From Psammoneis japonica (Eukaryota), in the NCBI GenBank assembly GCA_008632985.1, contig QPGO01000149.1, forward strand, positions 1 through 64,000: a DNA stretch of 64,000 bases. Reading direction: 5' to 3'. The position numbers and the translations under genes are program-made. Below are positions 18,401-62,353 of this stretch, in pieces (position 1 is the stretch's first letter; each line of letters opens with the position of its first letter). The notes under the pieces are model-generated. The model was not told the DNA's origin. It ran no database searches and was given only the letters and a program-made list of their open reading frames with translations.

Positions 18401-18680
18401 CAACATGTTGCAAGCCGTGAGAAGCGCCCTGTCACAACAAGTTGCCATTGCATCGAGCATGAGCGCATCCCTCCCATCTGTTCCATATCAAGTGCAACCG
18501 GCTCTTTCAAATCTTAATGATCTGATACGGGATCAGAGGAAGCAAGACATTGATCCATACTGTTGTCCTGTCTTCCTACAATACAAGCTGCAGCAAAGCT
18601 ACAGTGTGACGGGGTGCCGACCAAGAGGTCGACCAGCGCATTCTAAGGATTGCCCAAAGAGACAGCAGTCAAGGAGGTAG
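15485..18680 (+). mobile_element. DNA transposon transposase (DDE, DxxH-type, DUF6729-like), one frameshift near 17690
   Basis: ORFs 15485..17824 and 17652..18680 overlap. Cys clusters (CKRC..HDPTC; YECNKC..LLHKLP), SVASDHTF, IHYSDTWP, RLGLFHWMHRI, ESKLEKAH. Intronless, inserted between two paralogous host genes. Termini not identified. Confidence 0.65.
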
Positions 18681-23400: not shown

Positions 23401-23512
23401 CTCCAAGAGCTTCAACGTAAAAGCCCATTTCGCTTGCATGTTCGTTGTGGTGGTGCTCACTCGTTAGAATATAAACAGAGGCATTTTCTAGTGGTGATTC
23501 GTCGTACGACAT
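20500..23512 (-). CDS. Third paralog: BRCT-like N-terminus, acidic low-complexity linker and C-terminal transmembrane anchor, no J or OTU domain; two frameshifts
   Basis: The N-terminus (EHHHNEHASEMGFYVEALGG..IVDGEWLQRMSLLE) is nearly identical to that of 10731..14855. ORFs 22154, 21147 and 20500 join through shifts near 22300 and 21280. The protein ends SIIVLLSVICIVYVVQES*. Confidence 0.65.
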
Positions 23513-42305: not shown

Positions 42306-45300
42306 ATGGGTCGATGGTCGTATGCACTCCCCACCTTCTTGGCTCTAGCCTCATCACAATCCTCAGAGGCCTTTGTTCCGACGGGATGGTCTAGAAAAAT
42401 TCGTTTCCAAAGCAGCGCTCAAGATCATGCTGCCATGATGCACGCCTCACCTGAAGAATTTTATGATCAAGACGAACATTTGCATTTTATACCACCCGAT
42501 CGACAAGAACCAGAGCCATTTCCTGAACCAGATTATCGTATGGAAGAGTATGGAGTTGGGACGGATGAGATGCACGCCATGCCCACGTCCGATACATTAA
42601 TGCCCGACTATGTCGAGGGAAATCGCGCAGCGGAACAACGTCGAGGTCGTCAAATCGCTGAGGAATACCATGAAACACGTTCACGATCCAATTCTCGTTC
42701 TTCTTTAGCACCCGATTATCCGGATCGAGCTCCTCCGATTCCTTACAATGAACGGGGTCGGACACCATCACCTCGATCACGTTCCTCTTCTCCGGCGTCA
42801 CTGACACCGGATTATCCCGATTATCAGAGATTGGGTGGTACAGGCAATTCCGTCATGCCATCGTCGTCATCACGTCATTCCATGCCTGCATCTCTATCCA
42901 TTTCTCCCGATTATGTCGATCGTCAAATGGGTGCACCCGTCAATGAAGTTACCGTGGCACGTGATGTTTTGTTGGAAGCGGGTTTTGAACCACACGAAAT
43001 TTCATCTATATTGGATTTGTTTACACACAAAATGACAACCAATGCCGCATTTTGTCGCAAGAGTTTTGAAGAACGTGTGGCGGCAGCTGCGGCGGGTGCA
43101 CTTTGTTCCGATATTCGTAGTAGTCCTCGTGAGGGTGCCAAGGCCATGATGGATGCCATGTATCGACAACAAGAGCAAGAAGAAGCTAGTACTCCGAGTC
43201 TGTCGCCGCCGAGGAGTAGTCGAAATTCAATGGATCGATCGAGGAATGATTATTCTACTGCTCGTGGCATGGATAATAATGGCTACTCAGATCAATCGGA
43301 TACCTTTAGTAGAGACAGAAGCAGATCACGAGAAAGACCCATCATGAATGACTATTCCGACAGTGAACGAGACGGATTTCACGAACGAGAACGAATGATG
43401 CGCACCAACCAAAGAGAGGGATACTCTTATCGGTCGGATGGTTATCGCGACGAACGGAGTAGTAGATCACGAGATGGTCGTTCCATGGATGAATTGCAAG
43501 ACTATTCCGACCGTTCGTTTGGTGGAGAACGGGGCAGATCACGCGAACGAAGCATGCCCCAGGAGAGGGCTAGATCAACGTCTCGTTCCCAATCACGCGG
43601 CAGAGCGCCCGACGATGATATGGAACACTTTCGAGATCGAACCTTTGGCAGTGACGACAAGACTAGACGACAACAACAACAAGACAAGCCTCGATCCAGA
43701 CCAAAAGATTTGTCGGAATCGTTTGACGATGATACCGAGAGCTTTCGAGATCGTATCTATGACAAATCCAGACAATCGTCGCGCATGATTTCGAGACAAA
43801 ACAGTGGATCAGATGATTCTTCTCTTGGAAACCGTAATAACAAGCTGTCCGATGATGGTCCATCGTCTTTTGGTAGAGACGACAGACCGCCTTCTCGTAG
43901 GCATCAGAAATCGTTGGACCAGTCCATTTCCGAGGAAGGTACGGAACGATTTCGAGAACAGCCGTCTGCGTTTAGTAACAGCTCCTCCTCCAGACCGTCG
44001 TCTCGTGCGAGAGACCGCTCTGGTTCCTTTGGTGACAATTCTCAGCGTGACCAGAGATCGATTCCTTTGGCAACAAGCCTGCCGCTTTTGGCGGCGGCAG
44101 CGGCGATAAACCAGGGGCTTCGCAGTCGCGTTCACAATTTGGAAACAAGGCTCCTGGCGGTCGACCGGGTTCGCCATCGAATGGGCTTGCCGACAAACTT
44201 GAAAGATTTGGAAAGAGTTCGTCGGACGACCCAGCAATTGACAATGCCATGGCAAAAGGAAGGAGCCTAAGCAACAAGGCAAACAATCTCGCAAATAGAA
44301 ATGCTCTTGGTGGAATGAACAAACGACCCATGGGCAGTGGAATTCAAAAGCAGCCGGGTTCTACAGGTATTGGCAACAATGCTTTCAAATCTTCTTCGTC
44401 GCCTCCGGGCATGGCAAAGAAGCCGAACGCGTTTGGTTCATCACCAGGAGCAACCAAGCCGGGTATGGGGACGTCGAAACCTTCTCCGTTTGGACAGAAG
44501 AAAAATCCGGATGGTCCAATGAGTACAATGAATAAGAGACCTACTTCTCCAATGGGTGGACTACAAAAGCCTGGTTCTGCACCTGGAACAGGCATAGGAG
44601 CCTCCAAGCCGGGCATCGGTGCGGCGAAACCATCCCCGTTTGGTCAGAAGAAAAGCCCAGATAGTCCAATGGGTACAATTAATAAGAGACCTACTTCCCC
44701 AATGGGTGGACTTCAAAAGCCGGGCTCTGCGACCGGAACAGGCATGGGAGCAACCAAGCCGGGCATCGGTGCGGGGAAACCATCCCCGTTTGGTCAGAAG
44801 AAACCCACAGATAGTCCAATGAGTACAATGAACAAGCGGCCTACTTCTCCAATGGGTGGACTTCAAAAGCCGGGCTCTACGACGGCAACAGGAATGGGAG
44901 CAACCAAACCGGGCATCGGTGCGGCGAAACCATCTCCGTTTGGTCAGAAGAAAGCCACAGGTAGTCCAATGAGTACAATGAACAAACGGCCTACTTCTCC
45001 AATGGGTGGACTTCAAAAGCCTGGCTCTGCGACTGCGACAGGCATGGGAGCCTCCAAATCTGGTATCGGAGCGTCGAAACCATCCCCATTTGTCCAAAAG
45101 CCAAGCACAGATGGTCCAATGAGTACAATGAACAAGCGGCCTTCTTCTCCAATGGGTGGGCTTCAAAAGCCTGGCTCTTCGACTGCAACAGGAATGGGAG
45201 CCTCTAAACCTGGTATCGGAGCTTCGAAGCCGTCACCGTTTGGCAAAAAGCCAGGCACAGATAGTCCAATGAGTACAATGAACAAGGGGCCTACTTCTCC

Positions 45301-48300
45301 AATGGGTGGACTTCAAAAGCCTGGATCTACGACAGGAACAGGCATGGGAGCCTCCAAACCTGGTATCGGAGCGTCGAAACCGTCCCCGTTTGGCAAAAAG
45401 CCAGGCACAGATAGTCCAATGAGTACCATGAACAAACGGCCTACTTCTCCAATGGGTGGACTTCAAAAGCCTGGCTCTGCGACTGCAACAGGCATGGGAG
45501 CCTCCAAGCCTGGTATCGGAGCGTCGAAACCATCCCCGTTTGGCCAGAAGACAAGCACAGACGGTCCAATGAGTACAATGGACAAGCGGCCTACTTCTCC
45601 AATGGGTGGACTTCAAAAGCCAGGTTCTGCGACTGCAACAGGCATGGGAGCCTCCAAGCCTGGTATCGGAGCGTCGAAATCGTCCCCGTTTGGCCAGAAG
45701 AAAAGCACAGATAGTCCGATGAGTACAATGAATAAGAGACCTACATCTCCCATGGGTGGACTTCAGAAGCCTGGCTCTACAACTGCAACAGGCATGGGAG
45801 CCTCTAAACCTGGTATCGGAGCGTCGAAACCATCCCCGTTCGGCGGCGGTGGCTCTACTAGTGCTACTGCACCATCGCGTCCGTCTTCCCCGTTTGGTGG
45901 TGGCACGACGAGCACTGCACCATCAAAACCGTCGTCTCCCTTCGGTGCAGGTAGCTCGGCGTCTGGACTTGGCGGTGGTGGTTTCGGTCCCGGTGCGTCG
46001 TCTACAACTTCAGACCCGGCGAAGAAGGCGATGGACATGGCAAAGAACAAGGCAAGCACGTTCAATCCTTCTCCAGGACTAGGAGACACCAAACCGGGTG
46101 TCGGATTGTCCTCGTCCTCCACCTCATCTTCCCCGTTCGACGGTGGTGGCTCTACTAGTGCATCACGCCCGTCTTCTCCCTTTGGCGGTGGCGCGGCGAG
46201 CACGTCCTCATCTTCCCCATTTGGTGGTGGCACGACGAGCACTGCACCATCAAAACCGTCGTCTCCCTTTGGTGCAGGTAGCTCTGCGTCTGGACTTGGC
46301 GGTGGTGGTTTCAGTCCCGGTGCGTCGTCTACAACTTCAGACCCGGCGAAGAAAGCTATGGATATGGCAAAGAGCAAGGCAAGCACGTTCAATCCTTCTC
46401 CAGGACTAGGAGACACCAAACCGGGTGTCGGATTGTCCTCGTCCTCCGCCTCTTCTTCCCCGTTCGGCGGTGGTGGCTCTACTAGTGCATCACGCCCGTC
46501 TTCTCCCTTTGGCGGTGGCGCGGCGAGCACGTCCTCATCTTCCCCGTTTGGTGGTGGCGCGGCGAGCAGTACACCATCAAAACCGTCGTCTCCTTTTGGT
46601 GCAGGTAGCTCGGCGTCTGGACTTGGCGGTGGTGGTTTTAGTCCCGGTGCGTCGTCTACAACTACAGATCCGGCGAAGAAAGCTATGGATATGGCAAAGA
46701 GCAAGGCAAGCACGTTCAATCCTTCTCCAGGACTAGGAGACACCAAATCGGGTGTCGGATTATCCACGTCCTCCACATCGTCTTCCCCGTTCGGCGGTGG
46801 TGGCTCTACTAGTGCTACTGCACCATCACGTCCGTCGTCTCCCTTTGGCGGTGGCGCGGCGAGCACGTCCTCGTCTTCTCCGTTTGGTGGTGGCACGACG
46901 AGTACCGCACCATCAAAACCGTCGTCTCCCTTTGGTGCAAGTAGCTCGGCGTCTGGACTTGGCGGTGGTGGTTTCAGTCCCGGTGCGTCGTCAACAACTA
47001 CAGATCCGGCGAAGAAAGCTATGGATAGGGCAAAGAGCAAGGCAAGCACGTTCAATCCTTCTCCAGGACTAGGAGACACCAAATCGGGTGTCGGATTATC
47101 CACGTCCTCCACATCGTCTTCCCCGTTCGGCGGTGGTTGCTCTACTAGTGCTACTGCACCATCACGTCCGTCGTCTCCCTTTGGCGGTGGCGCGGCGACC
47201 TCGTCCTCGTCTTCCCCGTTTGGTGGTGCCGCGACGAGCACTACACCATCAAAACCGTCGTCTCCCTTTGGTGCAAGTAGCTCGGCGTCTGGACTCGGCG
47301 GTGGTGGTTTCAGTCCCGGTGCGTCGTCTACAACTACAGATCCGGCGAAGAAAGCTATGGATATGGCAAAGAGCAAGGCAAGCACGTTCAATCCTTCTCC
47401 AGGACTAGGAGACACCAAACCGGGTGTCGGATTATCCACGTCCTCCACCTCGTCTTCCCCGTTCGTCGGTGGTGGCTCTACTAGTGCTACTGCACCATCA
47501 CGTCCGTCGTCTCCCTTTGGCGGTGGCGCGGCGACCTCGTCCTCGTCTTCCCCGTTTGGTGGTGGCACGACGAGCTCTACACCATCAAAACCGTCGTCTC
47601 CCTTTGGTGGGGGTAGCTCGGCATCTGGACTTGGCGGTGGTGGTTTTAGTCCTGGAGTGTCGTCTACAACAGACCCGGCAAAGAAAGCTATGGATATGGC
47701 AAAGGGCAAAGCAGCCTCGTTTAATCCATCGCCAGGTCTAGGAGACACGAAACCGGGCGCCGGACTTTCATCGTCCTCGTCTTTTGTCGGTGGTGGTGGG
47801 TCTACTAGCACTACTTCACCGTCGCGTCCGTCTTCTCCCTTCGGTGCTGGCACGGCGAACACGTCACCACCTTCTCCGTTTGGAGGTGGGGGCACGACGA
47901 GCTCTACACCAACAAGTTCGTCATCTCCTCTTGGTGGTGGTGGCGCTACAAGCACTGCTTCGCCATCTGGCCCGTCGTCTTTATTTAGCAGTGGTGGCTT
48001 CAGTCCTGGTGGTTCATCTTCTTCTACTGCCGACCCAGCAAAGAAAGCTATGGACGTGGCAAAAAACAAAGCAAGCACGTTCAATCCTTCCCCAGGACTG
48101 GGAGACACGAAACCGGGTGCCGGACTCTCATCGTCCTCGTCTTCTCCGTTCGGCAGCGGTGGCACGTCCGGCACTGCGCCATCAAATCCATCATCTCCCT
48201 TCGGTGGTGGTACGAGCCAGACGTCGGGATTAGGCGGCGGTGGCCCGTCCTCTGGTTTTGGTGGTGGCGGCTTCGGTCCTGGTGCTTCCTCATCTACTAG

Positions 48301-51300
48301 TGCTGACCCAGCAAAGAAAGCTATGGAAATGGCAAAAACCAAAGCAGGCACATTCAATCCTTCTCCAGGACTTGGAGATACGAAGCCGAGCACGGGACTT
48401 GCACCTGCCTCGTCATCTCCGTTTGGAAGTGGAGGTACGACGAACACTGCAACATCAAGTTCGTCTTCGCCGTTTGGAGGTGGCGCCTCGCCGAGTACCA
48501 CTTCAACAAGTTCGTCAACTGGTTTTGGCGGCAGTGGCCAGTCTTCTGGATTTGGCGGTGGTGGTTTCAGTCCGGGTACTTCAAATACATCTGCAGACCC
48601 TGCAAAGAAAGCTATGGATATGGCAAAGAGCAAAGCAGCCTCGTTTAATCCGTCGCCAGGTCTAGGAGATACGAAGCCGGGCGCAGGACTTTCATCTTCC
48701 TCATCTTCCCCTTTCGGCAGTGGTGCCGCGACGAGTGCTACTGCATCAAGTTCATCAGCTGGCTTTGGTGGTGGTGGGACAACGAGCACGCCCTCGTCGC
48801 CCCCGTTTGGCGGTGGTGGATCTTCGAGCAGTACTGCGCCATCTGGCCCGTCATCTGGCTTTGGCGGTGGCAGCTTCAGTCCTGGTGCTTCCTCATCTAC
48901 TAGTGCTGACCCAGCAAAGAAAGCTATGGAAATGGCAAAAACCAAAGCAGGCACATTCAATCCTTCTCCAGGACTTGGAGATACGAAGCCGAGCACGGGA
49001 CTTGCACCTGCCTCGTCATCTCCGTTTGGAAGTGGAGGTACGACGAACACTGCAACATCAAGTTCGTCTTCGCCGTTTGGAGGTGGCGCCTCGCCGAGTA
49101 CCACTTCAACAAGTTCGTCAACTGGTTTTGGCGGCAGTGGCCCGTCTTCTGGATTTGGCGGTGGTGGTTTCAGTCCGGGTACTTCAAATACATCTGCAGA
49201 CCCTGCAAAGAAAGCTATGGATATGGCAAAGAGCAAAGCAGCCTCGTTTAATCCATCGCCAGGTCTAGGAGATACGAAGCCGGGCGCAGGACTTTCATCT
49301 TCCTCATCTTCCCCTTTCGGCAGTGGTGCCGCGACGAGTGCTACTGCATCAAGTTCATCAGCTGGCTTTGTTGGTGGTGGGACAACGAGCACGTCCCCGT
49401 CGCCCCCGTTTGGCGGTGGTGGATCTTCGAGCAGTACTGCGCCATCTGGCCCGTCATCTGGCTTTGGGGGTGGTGGCTTCAGTCCCGGTGCTTCCTCGTC
49501 TACTTCATTAAGTTCGTCCTCTGGCGTTGGTGGTGGAACAGCGAGCACATCCTCGTCGTCTCCGTTTGGCGGAAGTGGCACGTCGAGCACTGCGCCATCT
49601 GGCCCGTCATCTAGCTTTGGCGGTGGTGGCTTTAGTCCCGGTGTTTCCTCGTCTACTGCATCATCAAGTTCGTCAACTGGCGTTGGTGGCGGAACAACGA
49701 GCACATCCGCGTCGTCTCCGTTTGGCGGAAGTGGCACGTCGAGCACTGCGCCATCTGGACCGTCATCTGGCTTTGGCGGTGGAGGTTTTAGTCCTGGTGC
49801 TTCCTCGTCTACTGCATCAAGTTCGTCCACTGGCGTTGGTGGTGGAACAGCGAGCACATCCTCGTCGTCCCCGTTTGGCGGAAGTGGCACGTCGAGCACT
49901 GCGCCAACTGGCCCGTCATCTGGCTTTGGCGGTGGAGGCTTCAGTCCCGGTGCTTCCTCGTCTACTGCATCAAGTTCGTCAACTGGCGGGGCGACGAGCA
50001 CATTCGGTGGTGGTGGTGGTACGACGAGCTCTTCAACATCAAGCCCGTCTTCGCCGTTTGGAGGCGGTGCCACACCGAGTACCACTTCATCAAGTTCGTC
50101 AACTGGTTTTGGCGGTAGTGGCCCGTCCTCTGGATTTGGCGGTGGTGGTTTCGGCACCGGTGCTTCGTCGACATCTGCAGACCCTGCAAAGAAAGCCATG
50201 GATGTGGCAAAGAGCAAAGCAGCCTCATTTAATCCATCCCCAGGTCTAGGAGACACGAAACCGGGCGCCGGACTTTCGTCCTCGTCTTCCCCGTTTGGCG
50301 GTGGTGGTACGTCGAGCACTGCTGGTGGCTTCGGTCCCGGTGCTTCCTCGACTACTGCATCAAGTTCCTCAACTGACGTTGGTGGCGGAACTGCGAGCAC
50401 GTCCGCGTCGTCTCCGTTTGGCGGTAGTGGCACGTCGAACACTGCTCCATCTGGCCCGTCATCTGGCTTCGGCGGTGGTGGCTTCAGTCCCGGTGGTCAC
50501 TCGTCTGCTGCATCAAGTTCGTCAACTGGCATTGGTAGTGGGACAACGAGCGCGTTTGGTGGTGGTGGCTCGACGAGCGCTGCAACATCAAGTACGTCTT
50601 CACCGTTTGGTGCACCGGGTGCCACTTCACCATCAAGTTCGTCAACTGGCTTTGGTGGCAGTGGCCCGTCCTCTGGCTTTGGTGGTGGTGGTTTCAGTCC
50701 CGGTGCTTCGTCGACATCTGGAGACCCTGCAAAGAAAGCTATGGATATGGCAAAGAGCAAGGCAACCTCGTTTAATCCATCCCCAGGTCTAGGAGACACG
50801 AAGCCGGGCGCCGGACTTTCCTCCTCCTCGTCTTCTCCGTTCGGCGGTGGTGGCCCTACTAGGACTACTGCACCATCAAGTCCGTCAACTGGCTTTGGGG
50901 TTGGGGGTGTTAATCCGGGTGCTTCTTCCGCAAGTACAAGTCAGGCAGGATCTTTTGGAGGCGTACCTCCTATCGGAGGAATGAACTCAAAGTCAGGTCC
51001 GGTGAATTCAGGACTCGACCGTCGTGATCCCGGTACTATGTCAAACCAATCTGTTTCACCATCTCGTGATTCGACGATGGGGGCAGCTGGTGGAGCGACG
51101 AAAAAGGGCAATAATTTGCTGGGGCGATTTAGCCGAAAAAAGAACAAGGACAAAGCGAAGTCAGGTCAAGCAGATTTCAGCACTTATGGGGCCGACGAAA
51201 CGCCGAAGTCATTTCAACCTGCGAACGGTTTCCAGGGATCACGGATGGTTGATAAGGTTCCAGATCAAATTGATTCGTTCGGTGATAGAAGAAGTCAATC

Positions 51301-51664
51301 GTCATACGCTGGTTCAGGATCTTTTAGAAGTGAGACCAACTCTTCAAGAAAGGTTCGTGAACGGGTTTCTGTAGCGTTTGCTTCATTGAAATCAAAATGG
51401 ATCAAAGATGATCAAGGGTTTTATGCCGATGCAGTTGCCGACTGGGATGACCACAGCAGAATGTCCTACGAGACGAACAATAATGAATGGGACAACAATA
51501 GCAGAAGCTCATACGAGGAGACGAATGTTGACTGGAACGAGCCTAGCAGAACCTCAGATCAGAAGAAAAACTTTGGAGATCGTATTGCCGGAGGGTGGGC
51601 GTCTTTGAAATCCAAGATACTCAAAAAAGACAACCCATTGGATTTTGATGAAATAAGACGATGA
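42306..51664 (+). CDS. Giant (~3,100 aa) low-complexity repeat protein with a plastid-type presequence; one frameshift at ~44050-44062
   Basis: ORF 42306 begins with a signal peptide plus SEAF|VP. The frame of ORF 44249 is open back to ~44050 and there encodes DSFGNKP..DDPAIDNAMAK, which resembles the later repeat, so the two ORFs are probably one gene. Confidence 0.75.
44521..45840 (+). repeat. Coding tandem repeat, 9 x 150 bp (50 aa)
   Basis: STMNKRPTSPMGGLQKPGS units start every 150 bp from 44521 to 45721. Confidence 0.95.
46010..50810 (+). repeat. Coding repeat: 13 copies of DPAKKAMDMAKSKAxxFNPSPGLGDTKP in G/S/P/F spacers
   Basis: Counted in the translation. Includes a 603-bp higher-order duplication (tgctgaccca at 48301 and 48904). 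Confidence 0.92.
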
Positions 51665-52200
51665 TCGCGATTTGGTGTGCGCCTGTCTTTAAATAAATGG
51701 CCGCTACTCTAGAGAGCGTTACTACTGTTACAAATAATTCCGCGATTTTCCACACTCCTGTTGTTCGTACAAAGTATCTACTACGATACGTGCCAAATGT
51801 ACTCTACTAGTGAGAAGGCAACAGACCTCCCAAGCTGGGAGTGGTGAGAAGGCAACGTCCTCGCGCGTGGGACGGGAGGCGGAACGAGTTTTGCTATAAT
51901 ATGAATTGATACGCAACACATTGGTGGTGTTCAAGTCTACATAGAGAAGTATGCCCAGTTGATTCGCCAACGGTGCAGACTGCATTTCCGAGATTTTCAA
52001 TGGTTCGGCCGATTCCAGATTGCTTCCCTTGAGAGAGTTGAGATCCAGGATCCAGATTGACATCCATCTGCAGTTGAGATCTGCCAAGATAGTTTTAGTC
52101 AGGAACGACATCGAGTTAGTTCACTTACTCGAATAGAAGAAGGCAAGCCGTTGGTGCCTCCTTGTGTGATATCTTTGAACATCAACATCGGATTCTAGCC

Positions 52201-52365
52201 ATGAGAGGAAAGGGAAGCGGCAGCAAAAGTTCTGGTGGAGGAAAGAACAGCGGCGGTGGCGGTGGCAGCGGTGGCGCGACTCATCAGCAGCAGGAGCCAC
52301 AGGTCGTTAGTGGATATCAATACCATATGTACTCCCAAGGTTCCGGAGGTGATCGCTACGTTTAA
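52201..52365 (+). CDS. Possible small Gly/Ser-rich peptide (54 aa)
   Basis: ATG in gccATG context; MRGKGSGSKSSGGGKNSGGGGGSGG. Composition is the only support. Confidence 0.3.
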   Translation: MRGKGSGSKSSGGGKNSGGGGGSGGATHQQQEPQVVSGYQYHMYSQGSGGDRYV

Positions 52366-52562
52366 ATCGGAAAGGATGAAGACACCGGTGAGCCTGAGTT
52401 TATCGACTATGGACCCAAAGGAGGTCGTTAGGTTTGGAGCAGTTTGAGGACGATGCATGGGGAAACTACGACATGAGATTTTCAGCGGTACAGTGGTTGG
52501 TTTATTAGTTACGCCAAGCACGTTCTCCGATGGTAGCTTCAAAGTATAAGAAGTTAGGTTGC

Positions 52563-53678
52563 TCAAGAGCCCATGATAAATCCGTTCTCCGTAAATTCCA
52601 TTCTCTTTACTTGCTTCAGCAGCGCTGCTTTCCAGTCTGGCTCCTTCCCGCCGTGATACACCATTGCAAGCCCCAAACGAAGTCTGCAGTCTGGAAAGAT
52701 GTCTTTTGCCTTGGTTGCAAAGTCCCTCCGCGACAATCCCTGGTTCTCCTGGTAAAACTCGGTTACCTCGCGAACCACCTTGTTGGCAAATGAAGCCACC
52801 TGGTGCTGTAACTCACGCATTTGCTTCAATAATCCTGGCTGGTCTGCCAGGAGCTCAATCGCATCGTCTGCCTTGTCCTTGATCACAAGCTCAGCAAACG
52901 CTTTCGGAGAGACGACAAATGTTTTGACGCGGTGACGATGCAAGTACCAAGTGCACTTTTCCTTCCACCAGTTGCCGTATTCATCAACGACAACATAACC
53001 TTCCATGTCAGTTTCATTGTGTAAGGTGTTTAACTTGCAAAGCGGCTTGTGCTTAACAATGCATGATGCTGGAACCCGCTCTCTGAGCTGGTCATGCGAC
53101 AAGTATTTACCAGTGATGCGTGACCGAGCATTGAGAACAATCAAGCGAGGGTGATCATAATGCACAACGATTCGAAAAGTTGGGTCGGGAGACACCAACT
53201 CCATGTTTACGGTGAGATGCTCGTGCTCCAACCGTTCAATAGACCTCTTCAACTCCAAGTCTCGTTCGAGCAGTTCCTCTGCATAGAGAGCATGGTCGGA
53301 TTTTAATGATGTCTTGGATTTCAAGTGGAGTTCGCCACCGCCAGTCATGTAGGACGAGATTAACGAACCGTCAACCTTGTCCATAACAAACAATGGATGG
53401 CCGTAGTTGATAAAATCGACCTCACCCTTGTTGAAAAACTTTTTCATAGGACGAGACACGAGTGCATCAACGAGTTCAGGGTTGTCTTCTTTCATACGAA
53501 ACATGATGCCACGTGCCTCAAGCGCAGATGGCCTCAACCAAGTCTCTGGGTCAGCAAAGTGATATGAAAAGATGCGATATCGCTCACCATGTCGCTCTTG
53601 GTCCTTATGAAAGAATGGAGCGTCGCGGTCACTTGAGAGCGCCTTGAGCTCTTCATACAATTCTACTGCGTTTGTCAT
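52563..53678 (-). CDS. T4 Rnl1 (RnlA)-like ATP-dependent RNA ligase
   Basis: 371 aa, intronless, ATG 53678. ELYEEL, YRIFSY, ALEARGIMF, SRPMKKFFN, motif I KVDGSLIS, NMELVSP..RIVVHY, LNARSRITGKY, motif IV EGYVV and motif V KEKCTWY, in the same order and at similar length to T4 Rnl1. Confidence 0.9.
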   Translation of the reverse strand: MTNAVELYEELKALSSDRDAPFFHKDQERHGERYRIFSYHFADPETWLRPSALEARGIMFRMKEDNPELVDALVSRPMKKFFNKGEVDFINYGHPLFVMDKVDGSLISSYMTGGGELHLKSKTSLKSDHALYAEELLERDLELKRSIERLEHEHLTVNMELVSPDPTFRIVVHYDHPRLIVLNARSRITGKYLSHDQLRERVPASCIVKHKPLCKLNTLHNETDMEGYVVVDEYGNWWKEKCTWYLHRHRVKTFVVSPKAFAELVIKDKADDAIELLADQPGLLKQMRELQHQVASFANKVVREVTEFYQENQGLSRRDFATKAKDIFPDCRLRLGLAMVYHGGKEPDWKAALLKQVKRMEFTENGFIMGS

Positions 53679-53874
53679 TCTAAAAATACAGAGTCTTTGG
53701 AGATGCGGGAAAGTTAGGATTACGCCATCAACAGACCTGGCATTTGCCACTCAACTCGATTTATCCTTGTGTTGGAGGAGAGATGACTGCTTTTTGCAAT
53801 TATTCGGCTCACGCTCGTCACCACTATGAGTCCCGCATCCCGCACATTTGAGACGTGTTTCGATCTTGGGTGAC

Positions 53875-54076
53875 TGTGATTTGATTGTAGCTATTCTGCT
53901 GTTGTAACAATCAAAGGGCTAAGAAAATTGTGTGTTAAAATAGAATGTGAACTTTTAAAGTGCGTAGTTGGTCTCTTGTCGGAAGTAAGTGCGTCAGTAA
54001 AGAATCTAGCTCTTGAATCAAGTTCAAGGACTAGGACAGTTCGCCTGTCTGTCCGTTTGACCCTAGATTCATCACA
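53875..54076 (-). repeat. 3' LTR
   Basis: TGTGAT...ATCACA; 193/202 identical to 59695..59896. Confidence 0.95.
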
Positions 54077-54085
54077 CTCCCTCTC
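54077..54085 (-). other. Polypurine tract
   Basis: GAGAGGGAG on the minus strand abuts the 3' LTR. Confidence 0.85.
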
Positions 54086-54109
54086 AAGAGCCAATGCAGC
54101 GTTGTTTCC

Positions 54110-57100
54110 TTACCAACCAAGTATGAACTTTCGATGCCGAACGAGCAACTCTAGTGACAAAGGCTTGGTCAAGCAATCTGCAGGCTGAGCCTCGGTGTCA
54201 ATTTTCACTATCTCAATCTGTCCGCTCTGGACATGTGACCGGAAGTGGTGCAACTTGACATTGAGATGCTTTGTACGAGGTCGGTACTTGTGGACTCGCG
54301 CCATCTCTAGCGCACCGCTGTTGTCCTCGAACACTCTGCAATGGATCTTGGGTTCCGCTCGATCGATCGGAAAACCCTCTGCTTTCAATTCTTTCAGCAT
54401 CTCCATCAAAGGGATCGCCTCTCGCAGGGCACAGCTCAGTCCCGTGTGTTCGCTCTCAGTTGAAGAGAGACACATTTCTCCCTGTAATTGGGATTTCCAC
54501 GTGACCGGACATCCACCGTACATAATGACATATCCATGTCTGGACCTTGCAGTGTCTGGATTCGAAGTGTCACTCTTGTCGAAGTTCCCCGCAAAATCCG
54601 CATCCACATAAACCTCGAGTTCCTTGGACTTGGTTGGCCGCATCATAATTCCTTTGTCCCTCGTTCCCATGAGATGCCTGCCCAACCACCTGATTGCCTT
54701 ACCGTGCTCGACTTTTGGAGCTGCTGTGAACCTCGCGCACTGGTGAATCATGCATGAACAGTCACTTCGGGTGCCACGCTCCAAGCAATTCAATTTTCCA
54801 ACCATGCTCCGGTGGTCGAAGCTGTTGTCAAAGTCTTCTGAGTCTTGGTGTCGACCCAAAATCATGGATGATGCAGCTGGAGTGTCTTTCGTCTTGGTGT
54901 TCTTCTGGAAGTTCAGTTGCTCCAGAATTTGATCGACAAGGTGAGGTTGCATCAGATGTGTCATCCCGTCCGCTTTCCTGTCGATGTTCATCCCAAGAAA
55001 ATCTTGAATGTCGCCTTCCTCCGTTGTGTTTAGGTCTGCGCTTTGTGTGTCTTTCACGACTTGATCAAGCTCCTTTTCATCTGGACCAGCAAGCAAAGAA
55101 TCATCCGTGTGGAGGACGCATGTGCACTTTCCTCAGAAGAAGACGCACTCATCACATTTCGACTGCTTGAAGCCGAGCTTGTTGACAAGTTTGTCCACGA
55201 GACAGTCGTTCCACACTCGGCCAGCTTGTTTCTGACCATGTGCATTTCGATGGAGTTCGAGCACATGGTCCTCCGAGTTGCCATCTTCTACCTCGAATCC
55301 CTTGGGAATTTTCATGTGGATCTCTCGCTTGACTGGGGCCTGCGGAAACGCTGGCACGCAATCGAGTTGCTTGGTGTGCCAATTGTTCATGGCCGAGAGA
55401 ATTGGCAGCATTCGGATCGAGCTCCACGAGGCTGCAGGTGCGTGTGTCCTGTCCGGATTGTAGTGAATTGACTTTTTCATCCTTGACCCTTCGATGTTGA
55501 GCCTCGCCTTGTACTTTTTGACTTTTCTCATCTTGACATCGCGTTTCCGCTTCATTTGCCACACTGCAGGTGATGCTGTGGCATCCTTGGGGATCTCGGA
55601 AATGTGTCTCACCGAGAAGTTTCGGTTCCCGATCTGATCTTGGAATTCTTTTTCCATCGCCTTGACGAACTCCTTCGCATCTTTTTCCTTCATCGCTTCA
55701 TGGTGGTGCATGGCATCTGGGTCCGCCGTCGACTTGCAGGCATGCAAGGGATCTTCTTCGGATGATTCTTGTTGAGGACAGAGAGATTCGAATCCGAAGA
55801 TCTCTCCCTCTGTCTCTCCAATGCATTCTTCAGCTCTCGCCAGCGACTCGGCGGCATGTCTTGGGTTCGGTCTACTGACACGTCCCGATCTGGTCGTCAC
55901 CAGAGGTGCGTTGCGTTGCGCTGCGTCTTGTTGTTGTGCTGGAGCTTCCACGTTAGCAGCGCGCTGTGGGTCTGCCTCCTGAGCACTGGTTGGGAGGTTG
56001 CTGTCCTCCCTCTGAGTTGGCGATTCGTTCTCGCCTTGTGCTCCATTCAAGCTCGACCCATCAGGCTCTTGGTCTGTTGGTCGGCTGTCGTTGGCACTCA
56101 ACCACATGGGTTGTTCCCTAGAGGATTTTCGTTTTCTCCTCTTCTTGTGGCTCTTCTTGTTCGTGAGCCTCACGCTGTTTTCGCGTTTTCTGTTGTTGGG
56201 GGTCTCGGATGCTCCGTCAGCCTGGCCATCGGCTGGTGGATCTTCAAAGCCTGCTTTGGCCTTCCATCCGATCTTCCAGCGCTCTTGTTGAGCTGTGTGA
56301 AAACTCGGGTCGAATCTCACATGGAATTGTGGGCTTGCTCGTCCTGTTTCGATGTCGAGGACAAGCGCTGCGTTTCAGCAGTGCACTGGCGATTGGCCAA
56401 GGTAAATTCCCACGTTGGACCTTTGCTTCCACTTGTTGAAAATGTTTCCCGTCTGAAGTGCTTCTTCTAGCACCGCCACAGGACACCCAAAAGGGTGACA
56501 GTGTTTTGAGTTTACATCCACTGCGGATGAAGTGAACAGCTGGCATGCGCTTCGGCTCGCTGGATCTTTCAGCAGCGGCGTCTCGTTCAGCGCTTGATTT
56601 GCCATTCGCAATGCGTGCGGCCAGAGGTGAGGCGAGATGGCTTGTGGCCACCTCTTGTTCGCGTGAATCAATTGCGTTCTCGCCAGGTCTTGCAGATCTC
56701 GTATTTTCTTCTCTGCAGTTCCATTTTGATGATGCACATTCACTCCGGCAAAGGCAAGTCCCTGCCTTTGTTCTCGAACTGCGTTCACCCATGCCTTCAC
56801 CTTGAAAATGCCGTTGTCGGCATGACAGTGTCGGATTTTGATTCCACTTTCTTCTGCATGCTGCTCAAATGCTCTCTTCCCTCTCAACGTCTCTTCAGCA
56901 GAGCTCGTTTGCTGGAGGCACACGCACCCGTAGCCTGCAGCTTGGTCAACGTACACAGTCGCACAATTGCAGTGGTTTTTGGCAAGTGTCCCCGTGTTCT
57001 GTGCTGCCAGTCCAGGTGTGCTCGAGACCAGCATGTCGACTGACACGACTTGTCCCGGTCTCATAGGTGCAATTTTGTTCCTGCTCTTTTCGGTCCTTGG

Positions 57101-58387
57101 TCTCCATGGGCGCTTTGTTTGCTTCCCACAAAGGCATGCCGAGCAGACTGGGGCTGGGCACTTGGCCAGCGTGGGATCGATGAGCCTCATTTTCGCCATC
57201 TGTTGCAGGCACTTGAATGACATGTGACTGAATTTGTGATGCAGCTTCAGCAGTTTGGTGGTTTTTGTTTCTTCACCTCCATCTTGTCTGTCTTCCTCGT
57301 CTGGAACAACTGCCGCCGGACTGTCTTCATCCTTCTCCCCTTGCAGATCAAATTCGGTCTGCCGTGGGGCGGCCCAGTCGATGGGTTGGGCCGCGGTGTC
57401 CAATGAGTGTAGACCCACTTTTTGAAGGTGGGATTCTGAGAGCGTTTCGTCGTCAGCCTCGTCATCGCTAACAAGGTGAGCTTCAGAATCGTGTGCGATC
57501 ACAGGATCGTCCTCGTCGTTCGCTGAAATTTTTGCCTCTTGACAGAAAGCATCGTGTTTGGAGCAGCCGGGAGCCAGGGCGAACGTGGCGACGTTTGATT
57601 TCGTTTTGTCGATCGGCATGGTTAGCTTGTGCGAATGTTGGTTCCAACACAAAACCGTTGCACAATGGTTGGTGGTCTCCCCTGTCCCGCCAACTGCGTC
57701 TTTTTGAGATTGCGCCCAGTGTTGTGGACTGAGCAGTCGCGCATCCTCGTCCGTGGGCACGCAGAACGAGTTGGGGATGCGAAACTTGTGTCGTTTTCCA
57801 GTGTCGTCTAACCAGTTCCATACGATTGTGCCAATCATAACTCCTTTCGTTCGTGTTCCTCCGAAACCCTTGATGCAGCGATTCGATTGTCGCAATGGGC
57901 CTTCGAAATCTTCGATGAACGAAGAAATGCATCCGGAACAGCGATTGTCAACGCCGACCGGGCCTCCATCAGTGTTGAAAACGACGTCATTCGTGCGTGC
58001 TGGGCAGGTCTGAGCTTTGAATGCCAAAGCCGTGCATGCGGTCCATACATTGCGAATGCCTCGTGCCAAGTTCCATCGAGTGTACTTACGGCGTCGACAC
58101 TTCACAATTGCTCCCTCTAGGGAGCAAATCCGTGCTCGCATGGCTTGTGCCTCTTTCCCGTTCGGGCCACTCTCCCCCGTCCACACAGGATTAACGAGTT
58201 TTCGGCGCTGTCGGGATCGATCTCGGCGTTCATGACGACTCTTGTTCCTAGATTTTCGTCGGTTCATCGGATTGGGCCGGATTGGTGAAAGGCAGGCTAG
58301 AATGTACAGCAATGGCGACCAGATCGTCTCATGGGACTCATGGGCTGCTCCTGTCAATCGCCTCCTCCACGTGGGTGACGTTGACAG
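54110..58387 (-). pseudogene. pol: Copia pol (protease, integrase, RT, RNase H) with in-frame TGA stops at 56375-77 and 55133-35
   Basis: VGVDNRCS (PR); HHKFSH..CSAC, VSVDML, HADNG, HHQNGTAE (IN); KARLN, GQKQAGRVW, HTDD (RT); YVDADFAG, FEDNSGA, QPADCLTKPL (RH). All three ORFs are in one frame. Confidence 0.92.
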
Positions 58388-59665
58388 TCATTCCGTATCC
58401 GAAGATGAATCGTCTCCGCCGTTCTTGATCGCTTCCATAGCTTGTGAAATGCGGACGGTGTTCTTCGTCGTACCGTGCTGCTCGTTGTCTTCTTCATCCC
58501 TCTTGGGAATGAATCCGAGTCCTTTGCAATCCTTGGGATGGTGAATTCGCCACTTTCCACCACATTTTCCTCCAGTGATCTTGTCACACCAATGGCACGG
58601 CTTGCCTTTCCACACGATGGGGATCTTTTCTTTACCCTTCGCCGGTGGTTTGGCAGGACCCTTCTCCCTGCGATGCCTTTTCGAGGGCTCGCGTCGTTTC
58701 TTCTTGTGAGCCTTTTTCTTTTTCTCAAGGCTCGCAATCTTGGCTGACAGAGCAACAATCTGCTCCTCTTGAGGATCGGGAGCATTCCATTCTCCATTTT
58801 CCTTCATCATCTTGAAGCGCTCGTTTGCCACATTCATGATGTCTTCAGGAGTCATGTCTTGTCCCTCATCACACTGCTCCTTCTTCCTGCCAATGCAGTC
58901 AACGAACTTCTTGTCCGATGCATTGGCATGTCCCTTGAAGAGGTTTGCCAACAAGTCTTCTCTAGTCTCCCCTCGCGCGGCAAGCGCCTTCGTCATCATG
59001 AGTGCATGCTGATTGAATTTTGTGATGTCCGAGTTGATCGCATGAATGTGCTTGTCCAGCGATGACAACTTGGATCTGATGCTGGACGTTTTCGCATTCG
59101 AATCGAGATGGCTCTCGCGAATGATGACCTTGAGGAGCAGACATGCAGATGGACGTTTCTGTTGGATGGGATCTCCTTCCCTTGGCTGGAGCATGCACTC
59201 CTTCTTGTGCATCAAGATCTTGTTTAGTGCCTGGGTGTCGAGACTCGCCATCAGACACGAATGGAACATGTGATTGTCCTGTGTCGCACGTCCTTCTTCG
59301 AAGAGGTAAGCTCTCTCGTGTTGCTCAATTTGTTCCACAGTGAGCTGTCCGCAGTTGTCTGCCAGATAAACACGATCACTGTCTTGCTCTTCGGGGTTCA
59401 AGTCGACCAGCAGAATGGACAATTCATGCTCGTCGTTGTTCCATCTGTAATTGCCCGCACATTCATCAATTGCCTCCAGAAACGAGAACAAACTCTCTGG
59501 CGTGCAATCGAACAATTCTTCACTGAGTTTGTGCGTCGCTCTTTCGTAGAGCTTCCTTCCGGATGTTCTCCGACAGTCGATTACGCCGGTCATGGCACCC
59601 ACTGGCGTGAATGCAAATGGGACATCCTCTCCAGCAGCTGATGCGCTGCCATCAGAATCCGCCAT
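58388..59665 (-). CDS. gag: Copia gag
   Basis: 425-aa ORF starting just after the PBS. LLKVII, DITKFN, LFKG, GEWNAP and a C-terminal HWC..C..W..H....C knuckle. Confidence 0.85.
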   Translation of the reverse strand: MADSDGSASAAGEDVPFAFTPVGAMTGVIDCRRTSGRKLYERATHKLSEELFDCTPESLFSFLEAIDECAGNYRWNNDEHELSILLVDLNPEEQDSDRVYLADNCGQLTVEQIEQHERAYLFEEGRATQDNHMFHSCLMASLDTQALNKILMHKKECMLQPREGDPIQQKRPSACLLLKVIIRESHLDSNAKTSSIRSKLSSLDKHIHAINSDITKFNQHALMMTKALAARGETREDLLANLFKGHANASDKKFVDCIGRKKEQCDEGQDMTPEDIMNVANERFKMMKENGEWNAPDPQEEQIVALSAKIASLEKKKKAHKKKRREPSKRHRREKGPAKPPAKGKEKIPIVWKGKPCHWCDKITGGKCGGKWRIHHPKDCKGLGFIPKRDEEDNEQHGTTKNTVRISQAMEAIKNGGDDSSSDTE

Positions 59666-59671
59666 GGCACA

Positions 59672-59694
59672 ATCAGCTTAGCGCAGAGGAAGCG
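59672..59694 (-). other. Putative primer-binding site complementary to the 5' end of initiator tRNA-Met
   Basis: The + strand reads ATCAGCTTAGCGCAGAGGAAGCG, which looks like tRNA-iMet nt 1-23 (acceptor 5' strand plus D arm), and abuts the 5' LTR. Confidence 0.6.
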
Positions 59695-59896
59695 TGTGAT
59701 TTGATTGTAGCCATTCTGCTGTTGCAACAATCAAAGGGCTAAGAAAATTGTGTGCCAAAATAGAATGTGAACTTTTAAAGTGCGCAGTTGGTCTCTTGTC
59801 GGAAGTGAGTGCGTCAGCAAAGAATCTAGCTCTTGAATCAAGTTCAAGGACTGGGACAGTTCGCCTGTCTGTCCGTTTGACCCCAGATTCATCACA
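59695..59896 (-). repeat. 5' LTR
   Basis: TGTGAT...ATCACA, followed by GGTGAC. Confidence 0.95.
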
Positions 59897-59969
59897 GGTG
59901 ACTGAAAATTGTTCCAACGCATTCCACGTTTGCGGTCTCGCTCCAGCTGCTGCTAAAGCCTGCATTTAG

Positions 59970-62050
59970 TCAATTGGCGCTTCCAATGAAAGTCAGCAGC
60001 AGCACCAACATCGTCTTTGGATGCTCATCCATCGGGTGTCATTTGTCATTTCGACACGGGAAGTGAGTCGATGGAGCATTGCAGGTGGGTGCATCCGCGA
60101 AGGGCTTGCTCAAGTCTTGCTCAAGTTTTCTTCTTGTGCATCGGTTTCTTCTCACCACAATCAAGTGCATCATTGTTGTTGTCTTGGAGACGATCACATT
60201 TCTCATCCCAAGTGACCATGTCAGTGACCTTCCTGGCTTTTAAAAATGATGATCCCGTTGGCTGGCTGCCGGTCAATCCTCATCAGCTTTGTTGCATTTA
60301 ACCACTGGGTGCTCCCCTTGAGTTTGTCAAAAGGGTGGTCTCTTCAAAGGGAATCTCTGGCATGTGGACAGAAAGAGAATCTAAAAAGAGTTGAGTGACC
60401 ATCAACCTGAGTGTGAGACAGCAACCAAGGCTGAGTCTTTGCCTTTCCTTCGTGATCTGTGTGCATGACAAAGAAGCTCACATCTGTTGAGTGTGGCATG
60501 ACAGAAAAGGCTGAAAGTTGTTGCTGTCATTGCACTGTGTGTGTCATTGACAATTTCTTGAAGAGTTCTCCTCTCCCTCTGCCCTCCTGTGCCTTTTCAA
60601 TCAACTTTCTTTGCAAAAACGCCCGCAAACAACCGAGCAACTGAAGAAAAGCAGAATTGGAGAATGTCTGGTCAACAGAGCAAATGCAAAACCTTCTTGA
60701 ATTCTGTGGGGCTTTCATTTTTGTCTGGGAGATGAGAACTTTGAATCTCACCTGCTGACTTCCATGACAAAGGGCCTGCCATAAATTGGTGTTTCCCACA
60801 TTTTCCTCTTTGCGTTGTTTCTGATGCACTGACAACAAACACATGCGGGGCTTCATTCTTTGACCATTTGGGGTGTCCTGTTTTGCTGCAATGCATGGTG
60901 AGGAGGTTCTTCAAACAAGCAGAGTCCAGCTTTTGAATTTCCACAAGTTGGCTCATCATGCAAAGCAGAGCTGCTGATTGTTGTGAGCAATGGCCATCAT
61001 GTTGGGATTCAACAATTGAGCTAGTGAGAGTTGATGATGCAGTCACCCTCCACTTGTCAGACATGTGCACTCTCATTGGCCTGGATGGAAATGAGTGCAA
61101 TGGGCAGCTCAACCTTGCATTTGCTTCAGGAGGAGCTGATGACCACCCAGGCATTCTTTTGTGGATTTTGTTGTGTGCAACACCTGTTTGGTGAAGTTGA
61201 GTGTGAAAATGCACAGAATTGTCATCACATTTGCAGCATTTTTGTCTCTGTGTGTTTTTGTTGTTTTGCAATGGGGGTCTTTCACGAGTTTCGACCAGTG
61301 CTGCATTTTCATTTTTAAGACTTTCTCTCAGTGAATTTTGCAGCTGAACCATTTTTGCTGTTTGGCTCAAATCTTCTGTGATGTGGATTCGATGAAGGCT
61401 CTGCCCCCTGCACAGTGCATGGAGAGCTGGGATTTTGTGATGTGAATTTGCTGCGGATGTGTCAATGGCGGCTGCCAGGCCAAAATCAACTTTGACCCAG
61501 AGGTGCAAAGCATCCTTTTTTGAAGGCCATCCTTGACATGCAGAAAGTTTGTCACCATTTGGGTGTTGCACCCAGATGGGCTGTACAAAGTGCAACTCTC
61601 TAGCCTTCTTGTTCTGGGTGGAGACATGGGATTGACACGTCCCCAGGTGCACGCCAGATGCTTTTGGGCAGGGGAAAGTCACCCCTGTGCTGTTTTGCCA
61701 CAAGAGTTTCAGATGCTTGGCAAAAGCACCAGACAGGACCCTCTTTTTGATGATTGAAAGCACAAGATGTGGTGGAGGAGACCACTTGTTTGCATGGGAA
61801 TTCTTCCCTGCTCCATTGTTGTGACATCACGTGTCTGACCCACAAAGCACAAAAATGCCCTCCCTGGCCAGGAGGAGCAGCTGTGGTGTGAATGTCTCCT
61901 GTGCACAACAACACAGGATCTCTGTTGGCTCATCCAAGAGCAAAGGCCGTGTCAAACCCAAGAAAAGACAAGATCAAAAAGCACGCGCTGGCAAGTTGTG
62001 ATGGTCAGTTGTGGTTGCTTTGTGGCTGGATCCAATCAGCTGTCACATCC
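59970..62050. mobile_element. Decayed repeat/transposon tract of unassigned class
   Basis: TA- and CG-depleted. The minus ORF 60672..61763 is His/Cys/Gln-rich and nearly Tyr-free. Confidence 0.5.
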
Positions 62051-62353
62051 AACTAAGGACAAGGACATGAAACTTCGGACACCTTGAGGCATCGACTTTT
62101 CTGTTCCATTGTACACTCTCTTTCTTGTTATGTTCCCTTGCTTCAACATCTTCTTTCATCATCGTCTTCTCTGCCGGTAAAAAGAGGTTCAACCATGAAC
62201 ATGAATGAACAGAGCCCCAGTCGTGTTCCATCCGCAATCGGTCGGTCGGTCGGTCGGTCTGATGCAATGCCTAACTACTGTCCGCCGCCATCCGACAATG
62301 AACGGAATCGGCGGGAGGCGACGATACAGTAAGTTCCAAAGTTAGTTGAAACC

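What the first reader, a model, noticed from the sequence alone, without database searches (positions are those of the whole stretch)
52563..53678. Intact phage T4-Rnl1-like RNA ligase in a diatom nuclear genome
Seen: an intronless 371-aa ORF with all the nucleotidyltransferase motifs and a C-terminal helical region collinear with T4 Rnl1. It has normal TA content and a Copia LTR ~200 bp upstream. Known: T4 Rnl1 works with Pnkp to reseal tRNA cut by the PrrC anticodon nuclease. Inference: a horizontally acquired, virus-derived RNA repair enzyme, perhaps countering ribotoxins or resealing tRNA fragments. No Pnkp partner is visible in the window.
Basis: partly seen in the sequence, partly recalled or inferred. 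Interest (0 to 1): 0.72.

Follow-up and report, generated by a model that had tools for sequence, protein, structure and literature searches.

The report
Jumbo-phage RNA ligase in a diatom
A diatom chromosome carries an intact copy of the enzyme that T4-like bacterial viruses use to reseal cut transfer RNA, taken without its usual partner enzyme, and whether the alga actually uses it for RNA repair is still untested.

Summary
52563-53678(-) is an unbroken 371-codon gene of the T4 Rnl1 family with both domains and every catalytic position examined. Short-read contigs span it at the depth of the neighbouring host gene, so it is a real part of a diatom chromosome. Its closest relatives (45-54% identity) are environmental phage proteins; two lie in 293-344 kb T4-like jumbo phages beside Pnkp. 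Trees place it in or beside that clade on a long branch. It came alone: no phage Pnkp was found, but the genome has Trl1, RtcB and a multi-domain healing enzyme. A second, broken phage-type copy on another contig came from a different phage lineage (AU p=1.6e-5). Best reading: a retained phage tRNA-repair ligase that relies on host end-healing. Expression, selection after transfer and function are not shown. Rnl1-family proteins are already reported in Naegleria, so this is a new member of a known kind. The scan had not noted this sequence on other DNA.

The parts
52563..53678 (-). Rnl1-family RNA ligase coding sequence, 371 aa, no intron in the coding part, no N-terminal extension over its phage relatives
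52929..53678 (-). N-terminal adenylyltransferase domain (about residues 1-250) with R56, motif Ia (R76, K80), motif I, K122, motif III (E160), IIIa (R185), IV (E226, G227), V (K239, K241)
   Evidence: aligned to T4 Rnl1 and 48 relatives; motif names recalled
53367..53378 (-). Motif I, KVDG; K101 aligns with T4 K99, the adenylylated lysine
   Evidence: PDB 5TT6 title names K99M
52647..52913 (-). All-helical T4 Rnl1 C-terminal domain, the only match to PF20819 in the genome
53680..53812 (-). Candidate 133-base 5' UTR intron (GTGAG donor, CTAAC branch-like site, pyrimidine run and AG one base before the ATG); unverified
   Evidence: pattern precedes 4 of 2309 ATGs in the window; pattern chosen after seeing the sequence
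53875..54076 (-). 3' LTR of the Copia element, same orientation as the ligase gene, 197 bases upstream of the ATG
53875..59896 (-). Full-length Copia retrotransposon (gag, integrase, RT/RNase H, broken frames), LTRs 96% alike, 6-base target duplication at 53869-53874 and 59897-59902; a later insertion, not the carrier of the ligase
   Evidence: one short-read contig shows the site without it
44249..51664 (+). Neighbouring host gene (2471-aa Gly/Ser/Pro repeat protein), convergent with the ligase; used as the depth and continuity control

Best explanation
A single gene was transferred from a T4-like jumbo bacteriophage, directly or through an infected bacterium, into this diatom lineage's nuclear genome and has been kept intact. 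SHOWN: family, both domains, catalytic positions, chromosomal location, phage affinity, loss of the phage neighbours. INFERRED from T4 Rnl1 chemistry: the protein reacts with ATP at K101, passes AMP to an RNA 5'-phosphate and joins it to a 3'-OH/2'-OH end; the helical C-domain steers it to breaks in tRNA anticodon loops. INFERRED: with no targeting leader it acts in cytosol or nucleus and depends on host enzymes to heal the ends. Trl1-type healing leaves a 2'-phosphate that T4 Rnl1 is not described as using, so the likelier partner is a phosphatase-containing route such as the genome's HAD/2H/kinase multi-domain protein. My odds: genuine and phage-derived 0.9; still an active ligase 0.75; expressed and used for tRNA or other RNA break repair about 0.5.
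For: Closest of 350 hits are 45-54% identical environmental proteins. All 18 relative loci whose gene content I listed are gene-dense, single-strand and phage-like; by tblastn or Pfam 8 show a Pnkp neighbour. The two longest sit in 344 kb (complete, terminal repeats) and 293 kb records with a T4 gp23-type capsid gene. Tree support for the clade holding it: SH-aLRT 98 in 71 rows; 100/96 in 30 rows. All listed catalytic positions equal T4's, and 73 of 85 columns at least 95% conserved in 48 relatives are kept against 33 of 81 moderately conserved ones, p 1e-9. It keeps Tyr at 10 of 14 Tyr-rich columns while the broken copy reads His or Cys at about eight such positions and the adjacent Copia has about 1% Tyr. 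One 2186-base contig of run X1 spans 51691-53876 with 3 differences at depth 57.4, against 56.5 on the host gene; an X2 contig crosses the join at 51693 by 37 bases. Codon use leans to the host (+0.033 per codon; host genes 0.05-0.18; five phage ligase genes -0.19 to +0.03). T4 Rnl1 plus Pnkp can replace yeast tRNA splicing enzymes in vivo (PMC1920235, PMC5824351, passages), so the enzyme type can work in a eukaryote.
Against: No test of expression or activity. No orthologue in another diatom was found, so selection after the transfer cannot be separated from constraint in an unsampled phage donor. The branch is long (0.97-1.15 against a median end branch of 0.46-0.53), it departs at 19 columns at least 90% conserved (clade members: median 3, maximum 16), several in the C-domain, and it misses the TIGR02308 cut-off (222.7 against 242.25) that two relatives pass. 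AU tests do not reject a position outside, as sister to, the phage clade (p 0.14 and 0.36). The genome already has RtcB and Trl1, so the gene is not obviously needed. A Copia sits 197 bases upstream in the assembled allele. The other phage-type copy in this genome died. The three runs are one sample and may be the one the assembly came from.
Confidence: 0.55

Rival explanations
1. Neutral passenger: a phage gene inserted recently enough to be intact, little or not expressed, and on the way to the fate of the C8 copy.
For: No close relative from another eukaryote among 350 hits. Long branch and 19 departures at conserved columns. Copia insertion just upstream. A dead paralogue exists. Redundant ligases are present.
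Against: Composition already matches the host (GC3 0.55, TA ratio 0.44 against 0.75-0.81 in the two jumbo-phage genes, though 0.54 in a third relative). No frameshift or stop, and catalytic residues are kept. It escaped the TA-erasing mutation that hit the Copia beside it; a single-copy gene may simply not be targeted.
Confidence: 0.25
2. Active ligase with changed specificity: the catalytic core is kept but the C-domain has drifted, so it joins single-stranded RNAs other than tRNA (small RNAs, cleaved mRNA or rRNA).
For: About half of the 19 departures at conserved columns lie from residue 251 onward. Pfam C-domain score only just passes. The C-domain sets tRNA specificity in T4 Rnl1 (PMC11404444, PMC6379707, passages).
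Against: The C-domain is still full length and helical; D271, D272 and a basic pair at 317-318 aligned with T4 R318-K319 are kept (their role is recalled).
Confidence: 0.15
3. Assembly chimera or contaminating phage DNA.
For: Phage-type gene; the short-read runs may be the same sample as the assembly; the X1 contig into the LTR has only 28 bases on the gene side, under the tool's 31-base rule.
Against: One contig spans gene and both flanks at host depth; no other phage gene in 64 kb; host-like composition; a diatom Copia with a target duplication sits in its upstream flank.
Confidence: 0.03
4. Vertically inherited stramenopile ligase, related to the host's Trl1 or multi-domain ligase.
For: An AU test only borderline fails to reject grouping with the genome's multi-domain ligase (p 0.051). 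No other stramenopile sequences were available for the tree.
Against: 21% identity over 219 columns to that ligase domain against 53-54% to phage proteins; the multi-domain branch is 3.7-6.1 long, so the test has little power; it is the only PF20819 match in the genome; nearest ESM Atlas clusters are mostly viral by their few labelled members.
Confidence: 0.02

Closest known systems
Bacteriophage T4 RNA ligase 1 (RnlA/gp63; PDB 2C5U, 5TT6, 9DO4; PF09511 + PF20819; TIGR02308; phrog_562)
   Same: Collinear over residues 6-332, both domains, catalytic positions identical.
   Different: About 30% identical; sits in a eukaryotic chromosome; no pseT/Pnkp beside it or found in the genome; under the equivalog cut-off.
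Rnl1 of uncultured T4-like jumbo phages (IMG/VR records of loci L003, L004, and about 48 environmental proteins)
   Same: 45-54% identity, clade-specific motifs, 64% DNA identity over 799 bases to L003.
   Different: There the gene lies in an RNA-repair cluster with a metallophosphoesterase, Pnkp and sometimes Rnl2; the diatom gene is alone and on a branch about two to four times longer than most clade members.
Rnl1-family proteins of Naegleria gruberi (seven listed in PMC4408790, passages seen)
   Same: Precedent for Rnl1-family ligases in a protist nuclear genome with many RNA-repair enzymes.
   Different: I did not have those sequences and could not compare them; no phage donor clade is given in the passages seen.
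Fungal/plant Trl1 (Rnl6 clade) and the diatom's own Trl1 (G000 C94, C117)
   Same: Shared adenylyltransferase fold (Z 21-22).
   Different: Trl1 has its own C-domain, fused kinase and phosphodiesterase, and needs a 2'-phosphate (PMC11404444).
Human RLIG1 (C12orf29)
   Same: Stand-alone eukaryotic 5'-phosphate/3'-OH ligase proposed to repair tRNA with separate healing enzymes (PMC11494293, passages).
   Different: Its structurally solved viral homologue lacks the T4 RNA-binding domain; not a hit in my sequence or fold searches.

Membership tests
T4 Rnl1 family | N-terminal adenylyltransferase domain with motifs I, Ia, III, IIIa, IV, V | tested here: met
   PF09511 over cut-off; T4 K99, D101, G102, K75, E159, R182, E227, G228, K240, K242 all matched
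T4 Rnl1 family | Rnl1-type N-terminal subdomain residues that contact ATP (T4 R54, K75, F76) | tested here: met
   R56, K80, F81; roles from PMC6379707 passage
T4 Rnl1 family | Family-defining helical C-terminal domain | tested here: met
   PF20819 30.3 bits, cut-off 27; helical in the model; aligned to T4 over model range 3-365
T4 RnlA equivalog (TIGR02308) | Whole-protein score over the curated cut-off | tested here: not met
   222.7 against 242.25; two phage relatives score 273 and 253. Lowers 'same conserved function as RnlA', not family membership.
T4 Rnl1 family | ATP-dependent sealing of 3'-OH/5'-phosphate ends, with preference for tRNA | not testable with these tools
   needs biochemistry
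Phage Rnl1-Pnkp tRNA repair system | A Pnkp (P-loop kinase plus HAD phosphatase) in the same genome, usually nearby | tested here: inconclusive
   None nearby. Not found genome-wide with a phage Pnkp or PF25109, but no control rang. A different HAD/2H/kinase protein exists.
Trl1 (Rnl6) tRNA ligase | Fused kinase and cyclic phosphodiesterase, Trl1-type C-domain | tested here: not met
   371-aa stand-alone protein with the T4 C-domain; the genome's Trl1 is a different gene
Domesticated horizontal transfer | Physical linkage to host DNA | tested here: met
Domesticated horizontal transfer | Nested among donor-lineage sequences | tested here: inconclusive
   Bootstrap supports nesting; AU tests do not reject a sister position. 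All neighbours either way are phage or environmental.
Domesticated horizontal transfer | Expression and purifying selection after the transfer | tested here: inconclusive
   Conserved columns preferentially kept, but no orthologue to date the constraint, and expression not shown

The most novel reading that the evidence does not exclude
The diatom has domesticated a phage counter-defence enzyme as its own antidote to anticodon nucleases delivered by bacteria or viruses, pairing it with host healing enzymes into a phage-type (2'-OH) tRNA repair route beside Trl1 and RtcB. The lineage recruited Rnl1 twice from different phage clades, once with a leader that looks like a plastid-targeting sequence, which would point to recurring selection for tRNA repair in both cytosol and organelle.
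Probability: 0.2. Interest if true: 0.8.

Novelty: new member of a known kind. Interest (0 to 1): 0.5.

Why it matters
Transfers from tailed bacteriophages into eukaryotic nuclei with a traceable donor clade are uncommon (own knowledge). This one concerns an enzyme whose known job is to undo an immune attack on tRNA. Two independent Rnl1 acquisitions in one genome, one intact and one dead, give a natural comparison. If expressed, the gene makes directly testable whether an alga repairs ribotoxin-cut tRNA, something fungi are said to lack (PMC3025547, passage). If it is silent, it is an ordinary case of horizontal transfer into a diatom.

Tried and rejected
Expression: no RNA holder was listed, which says nothing either way. 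Run X2 (kind guessed as DNA, library not on record) has contigs on the ligase (52512-53158, 53199-53445) and on the end of the neighbouring gene but none on the intergenic part or the multi-copy LTR; that would fit an RNA library, but parts without cover are not evidence, so I did not count it. Phage Pnkp and PF25109 searches of the genome found nothing, with no positive control. PF03372 search for an ANGEL2-like healing enzyme gave 71 matches that I could not sort. Search for fused or longer relatives gave 1 of 5749 candidates at 31% identity. Search for an intact relative of the C8 copy gave 0 of 333 candidates, an insensitive search since known phage relatives were missed. Scans with the single protein found no close locus in genome contigs (0 of 21 stretches) or viral contigs (0 of 1). 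With the alignment, 2 of 28 stretches in genome contigs were relatives, both in metagenome-assembled bins; I read one (L038) and it looks phage-like. No allelic or second copy of 51050-53874 or 59897-62400 was found. The idea that the Copia carried the gene was rejected: the gene lies outside both LTRs and the target duplication. The careful 71-row mixture tree did not finish; the quick tree was used, with smaller trees under a simpler model. The trees used 71, 34 and 30 rows picked by hand from 276 proteins and 27 viral or genomic loci; no baculovirus, giant-virus or Naegleria sequence was included. Literature: searches listed no paper on a T4-type Rnl1 in a diatom (listings and abstracts only); two searches found no full residue list for T4 Rnl1; one search found nothing on TA loss in diatom repeats. 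Wang et al. 2007 and Burroughs and Aravind 2016 were not held; the latter surveys RNA-repair enzymes and may already mention eukaryotic Rnl1 transfers. No supplements were read; HGT gene lists in diatom genome papers could contain this gene.

Full report
OBSERVATION. The frame 52563-53678 on the minus strand translates to 371 residues without a stop. It passes the cut-offs of both Pfam models of T4 RNA ligase 1 and matches T4 Rnl1 over residues 6-332 at E 3.9e-45. A model built from 30 sequences has pLDDT 90.9. T4 Rnl1 heads both fold comparisons: Foldseek E 6.9e-29, TM 0.60; VIA-align Z 32.6 against 21.8 for fungal Trl1. The rmsd of 13 A most likely reflects the angle between the two domains (inference). 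The genome is a diatom's: 24 matches to the silicon transporter family.

IS IT REALLY IN THE CHROMOSOME? One 2186-base contig of run X1 covers 51691-53876 with 3 differences at depth 57.4; the contig on the neighbouring host gene has 56.5; an X2 contig crosses the join between them by 37 bases. Depth of contigs is not a copy number and the three runs are one sample, possibly the one assembled, so this is consistent rather than independent. No other phage gene lies in the 64 kb: 43 of 49 tblastn hits from 769 frames of 18 relative loci fall in the ligase and the rest are short and weak. GC 0.48, GC3 0.55 and TA ratio 0.44 are host-like. The stretch is found once in the assembly. The Copia upstream has LTRs at 53875-54076 and 59695-59896 and a 6-base target duplication; one X1 contig continues from 53876 into the sequence beyond the far LTR, which is the empty site. 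The element is therefore a later, probably polymorphic insertion and did not bring the gene.

WHERE IT CAME FROM. Of 350 hits, the best are about 50 environmental proteins at 43-54% identity; the rest are under 40%. Cultured phages reach 35%. Two of the close ones lie in IMG/VR records of 344 kb (complete, terminal repeats) and 293 kb, both with a T4 gp23-type capsid gene at E about 1e-96. There the ligase sits with a metallophosphoesterase and a Pnkp, in one case also Rnl2. Fifteen of the closest metagenome loci that I listed, out of 80 returned, are all gene-dense and phage-like; 5 show Pnkp and 9 the phosphoesterase by tblastn. None looks eukaryotic. In the 71-row quick tree the diatom protein is inside a 28-row set with SH-aLRT 98; in the 30-row careful tree inside sets with 100/96 and 92/96. 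AU tests do not reject a sister position (p 0.14, 0.36), so the safe statement is 'in or beside this jumbo-phage clade'. Whether the DNA came from a particle or an infected bacterium cannot be told. Jumbo phages commonly carry Rnl1 with healing enzymes (PMC7824862, passages).

IS IT STILL AN ENZYME? Against T4 Rnl1, the positions R54, R71, K75, F76, F77, K99, D101, G102, K119, E159, R166, R182, E227, G228, K240, K242, Y246, D272, D273 and R318 are identical; K319 is Arg. That R54 and K75 are essential is from PMC6379707 (passage); the importance of most others is recalled. 73 of 85 near-invariant columns are kept against 33 of 81 moderately conserved ones. Against this, the branch is long, 19 well-conserved columns differ (clade median 3, maximum 16), and the TIGR02308 score is under its cut-off. 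The constraint could predate the transfer, since no diatom orthologue was found and this protein is itself not in the collection.

AN IN-GENOME CONTROL. A second phage-type Rnl1 lies on G000 C8. It has a frameshift with a deletion after the first conserved block, an internal stop, a changed motif I and no recognisable C-domain, and it begins with a hydrophobic then Ser/Arg/Ala-rich leader that looks by eye like a signal plus transit peptide. It is 36-41% identical to a different phage clade and 29% to the window protein; holding the two together is rejected (p 1.6e-5). So the lineage took up Rnl1 twice. The genome erases TA dinucleotides in repeats: the ratio falls from about 0.5 over the ligase to 0.10-0.15 inside the Copia, and all 9 differences between the LTRs are T>C or A>G, 8 of them at TA, with the LTR next to the ligase keeping the TA. 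The dead copy reads His or Cys at about eight aligned Tyr positions (read by eye), while the window gene keeps 10 of 14 Tyr-rich columns with one Tyr to His. The gene has thus escaped or purged this process; being single-copy may be enough to explain that.

PARTNERS. T4 Rnl1 needs 5'-phosphate, 3'-OH, 2'-OH ends (PMC11494293), made in T4 by Pnkp (PMC3400036, PMC1920235). No phage Pnkp was found in the genome (no positive control). The genome has RtcB, a Trl1 with ligase, kinase-like and 2H-like parts, and a 1061-residue protein with a HAD-like motif (NT5C, E 0.008, under cut-off), a 2H phosphodiesterase, a distant Rnl1-like ligase and a P-loop kinase. An earlier scan note describes the same protein (e1-7613821). 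Trl1-type healing leaves a 2'-phosphate; a HAD plus 2H plus kinase set could in principle give the ends Rnl1 needs (inference).

EXPRESSION SIGNALS. The ATG falls three residues before the phage start, with no targeting leader. Directly upstream lies a GTGAG...CTAAC...TTTTTAG pattern like the window's own introns, found before 4 of 2309 ATGs (pattern chosen after the fact). A 5' UTR intron would be a sign of domestication. The Copia's 3' LTR points toward the gene and could supply or disturb a promoter (speculation). Transcription was not shown.

MECHANISM. Most likely: three-step ligation through K101-AMP, aimed by the C-domain at broken tRNA (PMC11404444, PMC6379707), downstream of host healing. 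T4's pair works in yeast (PMC1920235, PMC5824351). Confidence 0.55; passenger 0.25; changed specificity 0.15; artefact or vertical descent 0.05 together.

KNOWN OR NEW. It works like, and by both domains is, a member of the Rnl1 family; it is not shown to be part of a complete Rnl1-Pnkp system. Seven Rnl1-family proteins are listed for Naegleria (PMC4408790), so a eukaryotic Rnl1 is not without precedent. My searches listed no report for diatoms, but two key papers were not held. Of all papers cited I saw only the passages returned by term search. Verdict: new member of a known kind, interest 0.5; the clean donor clade and the double acquisition raise it, the lack of expression or function data holds it down.

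Noticed in passing
G000:C8, locus L002 1285-2410 (-): Second, broken phage-type Rnl1 from a different phage clade, with a leader resembling a signal plus transit peptide and many Tyr to His/Cys changes, at the edge of a TA-stripped block.
   Followed up: partly
G000:C126 and C86, locus L045 3181-6366 (-): 1061-aa single-exon protein: ubiquitin-like start, HAD-like phosphatase, 2H phosphodiesterase, Rnl1-like ligase, P-loop kinase. Also noted by an earlier scan finding.
   Followed up: partly
G000:C1, C5, C261 (RtcB); C94, C117 (Trl1): The genome holds both RtcB (4 matches) and a Trl1-type ligase, besides the Rnl1-type genes: an unusually full set of RNA ligases.
   Followed up: partly
window 53875-54076 and 59695-59896: All 9 LTR differences are T>C or A>G, 8 at TA sites, and always the LTR nearer the ligase keeps the TA: a directional repeat-mutation process with a gradient away from the gene. 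The target duplication is 6 bases.
   Followed up: partly
window 59900-62200: Strongly TA-depleted stretch (ratio 0.03-0.09), found once in the assembly by DNA search; probably an old mutated element. It is the native upstream flank of the ligase on the Copia-free allele.
   Followed up: partly
window 53037: Both runs read C where the assembly has G, which makes residue 214 Trp instead of Cys: an allele or an assembly error.
   Followed up: yes
window 52201-52365 (+): Short Gly/Ser-rich frame of about 54 codons between the ligase and the large neighbour, followed by more protein-like sequence after a stop; possibly a small or broken gene.
   Followed up: no
window 44249-51664 (+): 2471-aa single-frame protein of Gly/Ser/Pro/Thr repeats in at least three repeat types, with a Trp/Asp-rich end.
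   Followed up: no
window 10731-14855, about 20000-23512, 24110-25978 (all -): Three tandem paralogues sharing an N-terminal domain and, in at least two, a DnaJ-like HPD motif and C-terminal domain, with Glu/Lys/Pro/Ala-rich inserts of very different length.
   Followed up: no
window 62354-63277 (+): 307-aa frame with a weak restriction-endonuclease Pfam hit (E 0.013) and an HNH-like His motif; may continue past a stop.
   Followed up: no
window 15485-18680 (+): Two overlapping frames that look like a transposase-derived gene.
   Followed up: no
L003 7047-7823 and L068 3179-3982: Jumbo-phage relatives place a PAS-GGDEF diguanylate cyclase gene directly after Rnl1 (Pfam-checked in L003, by eye in L068).
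   Followed up: no
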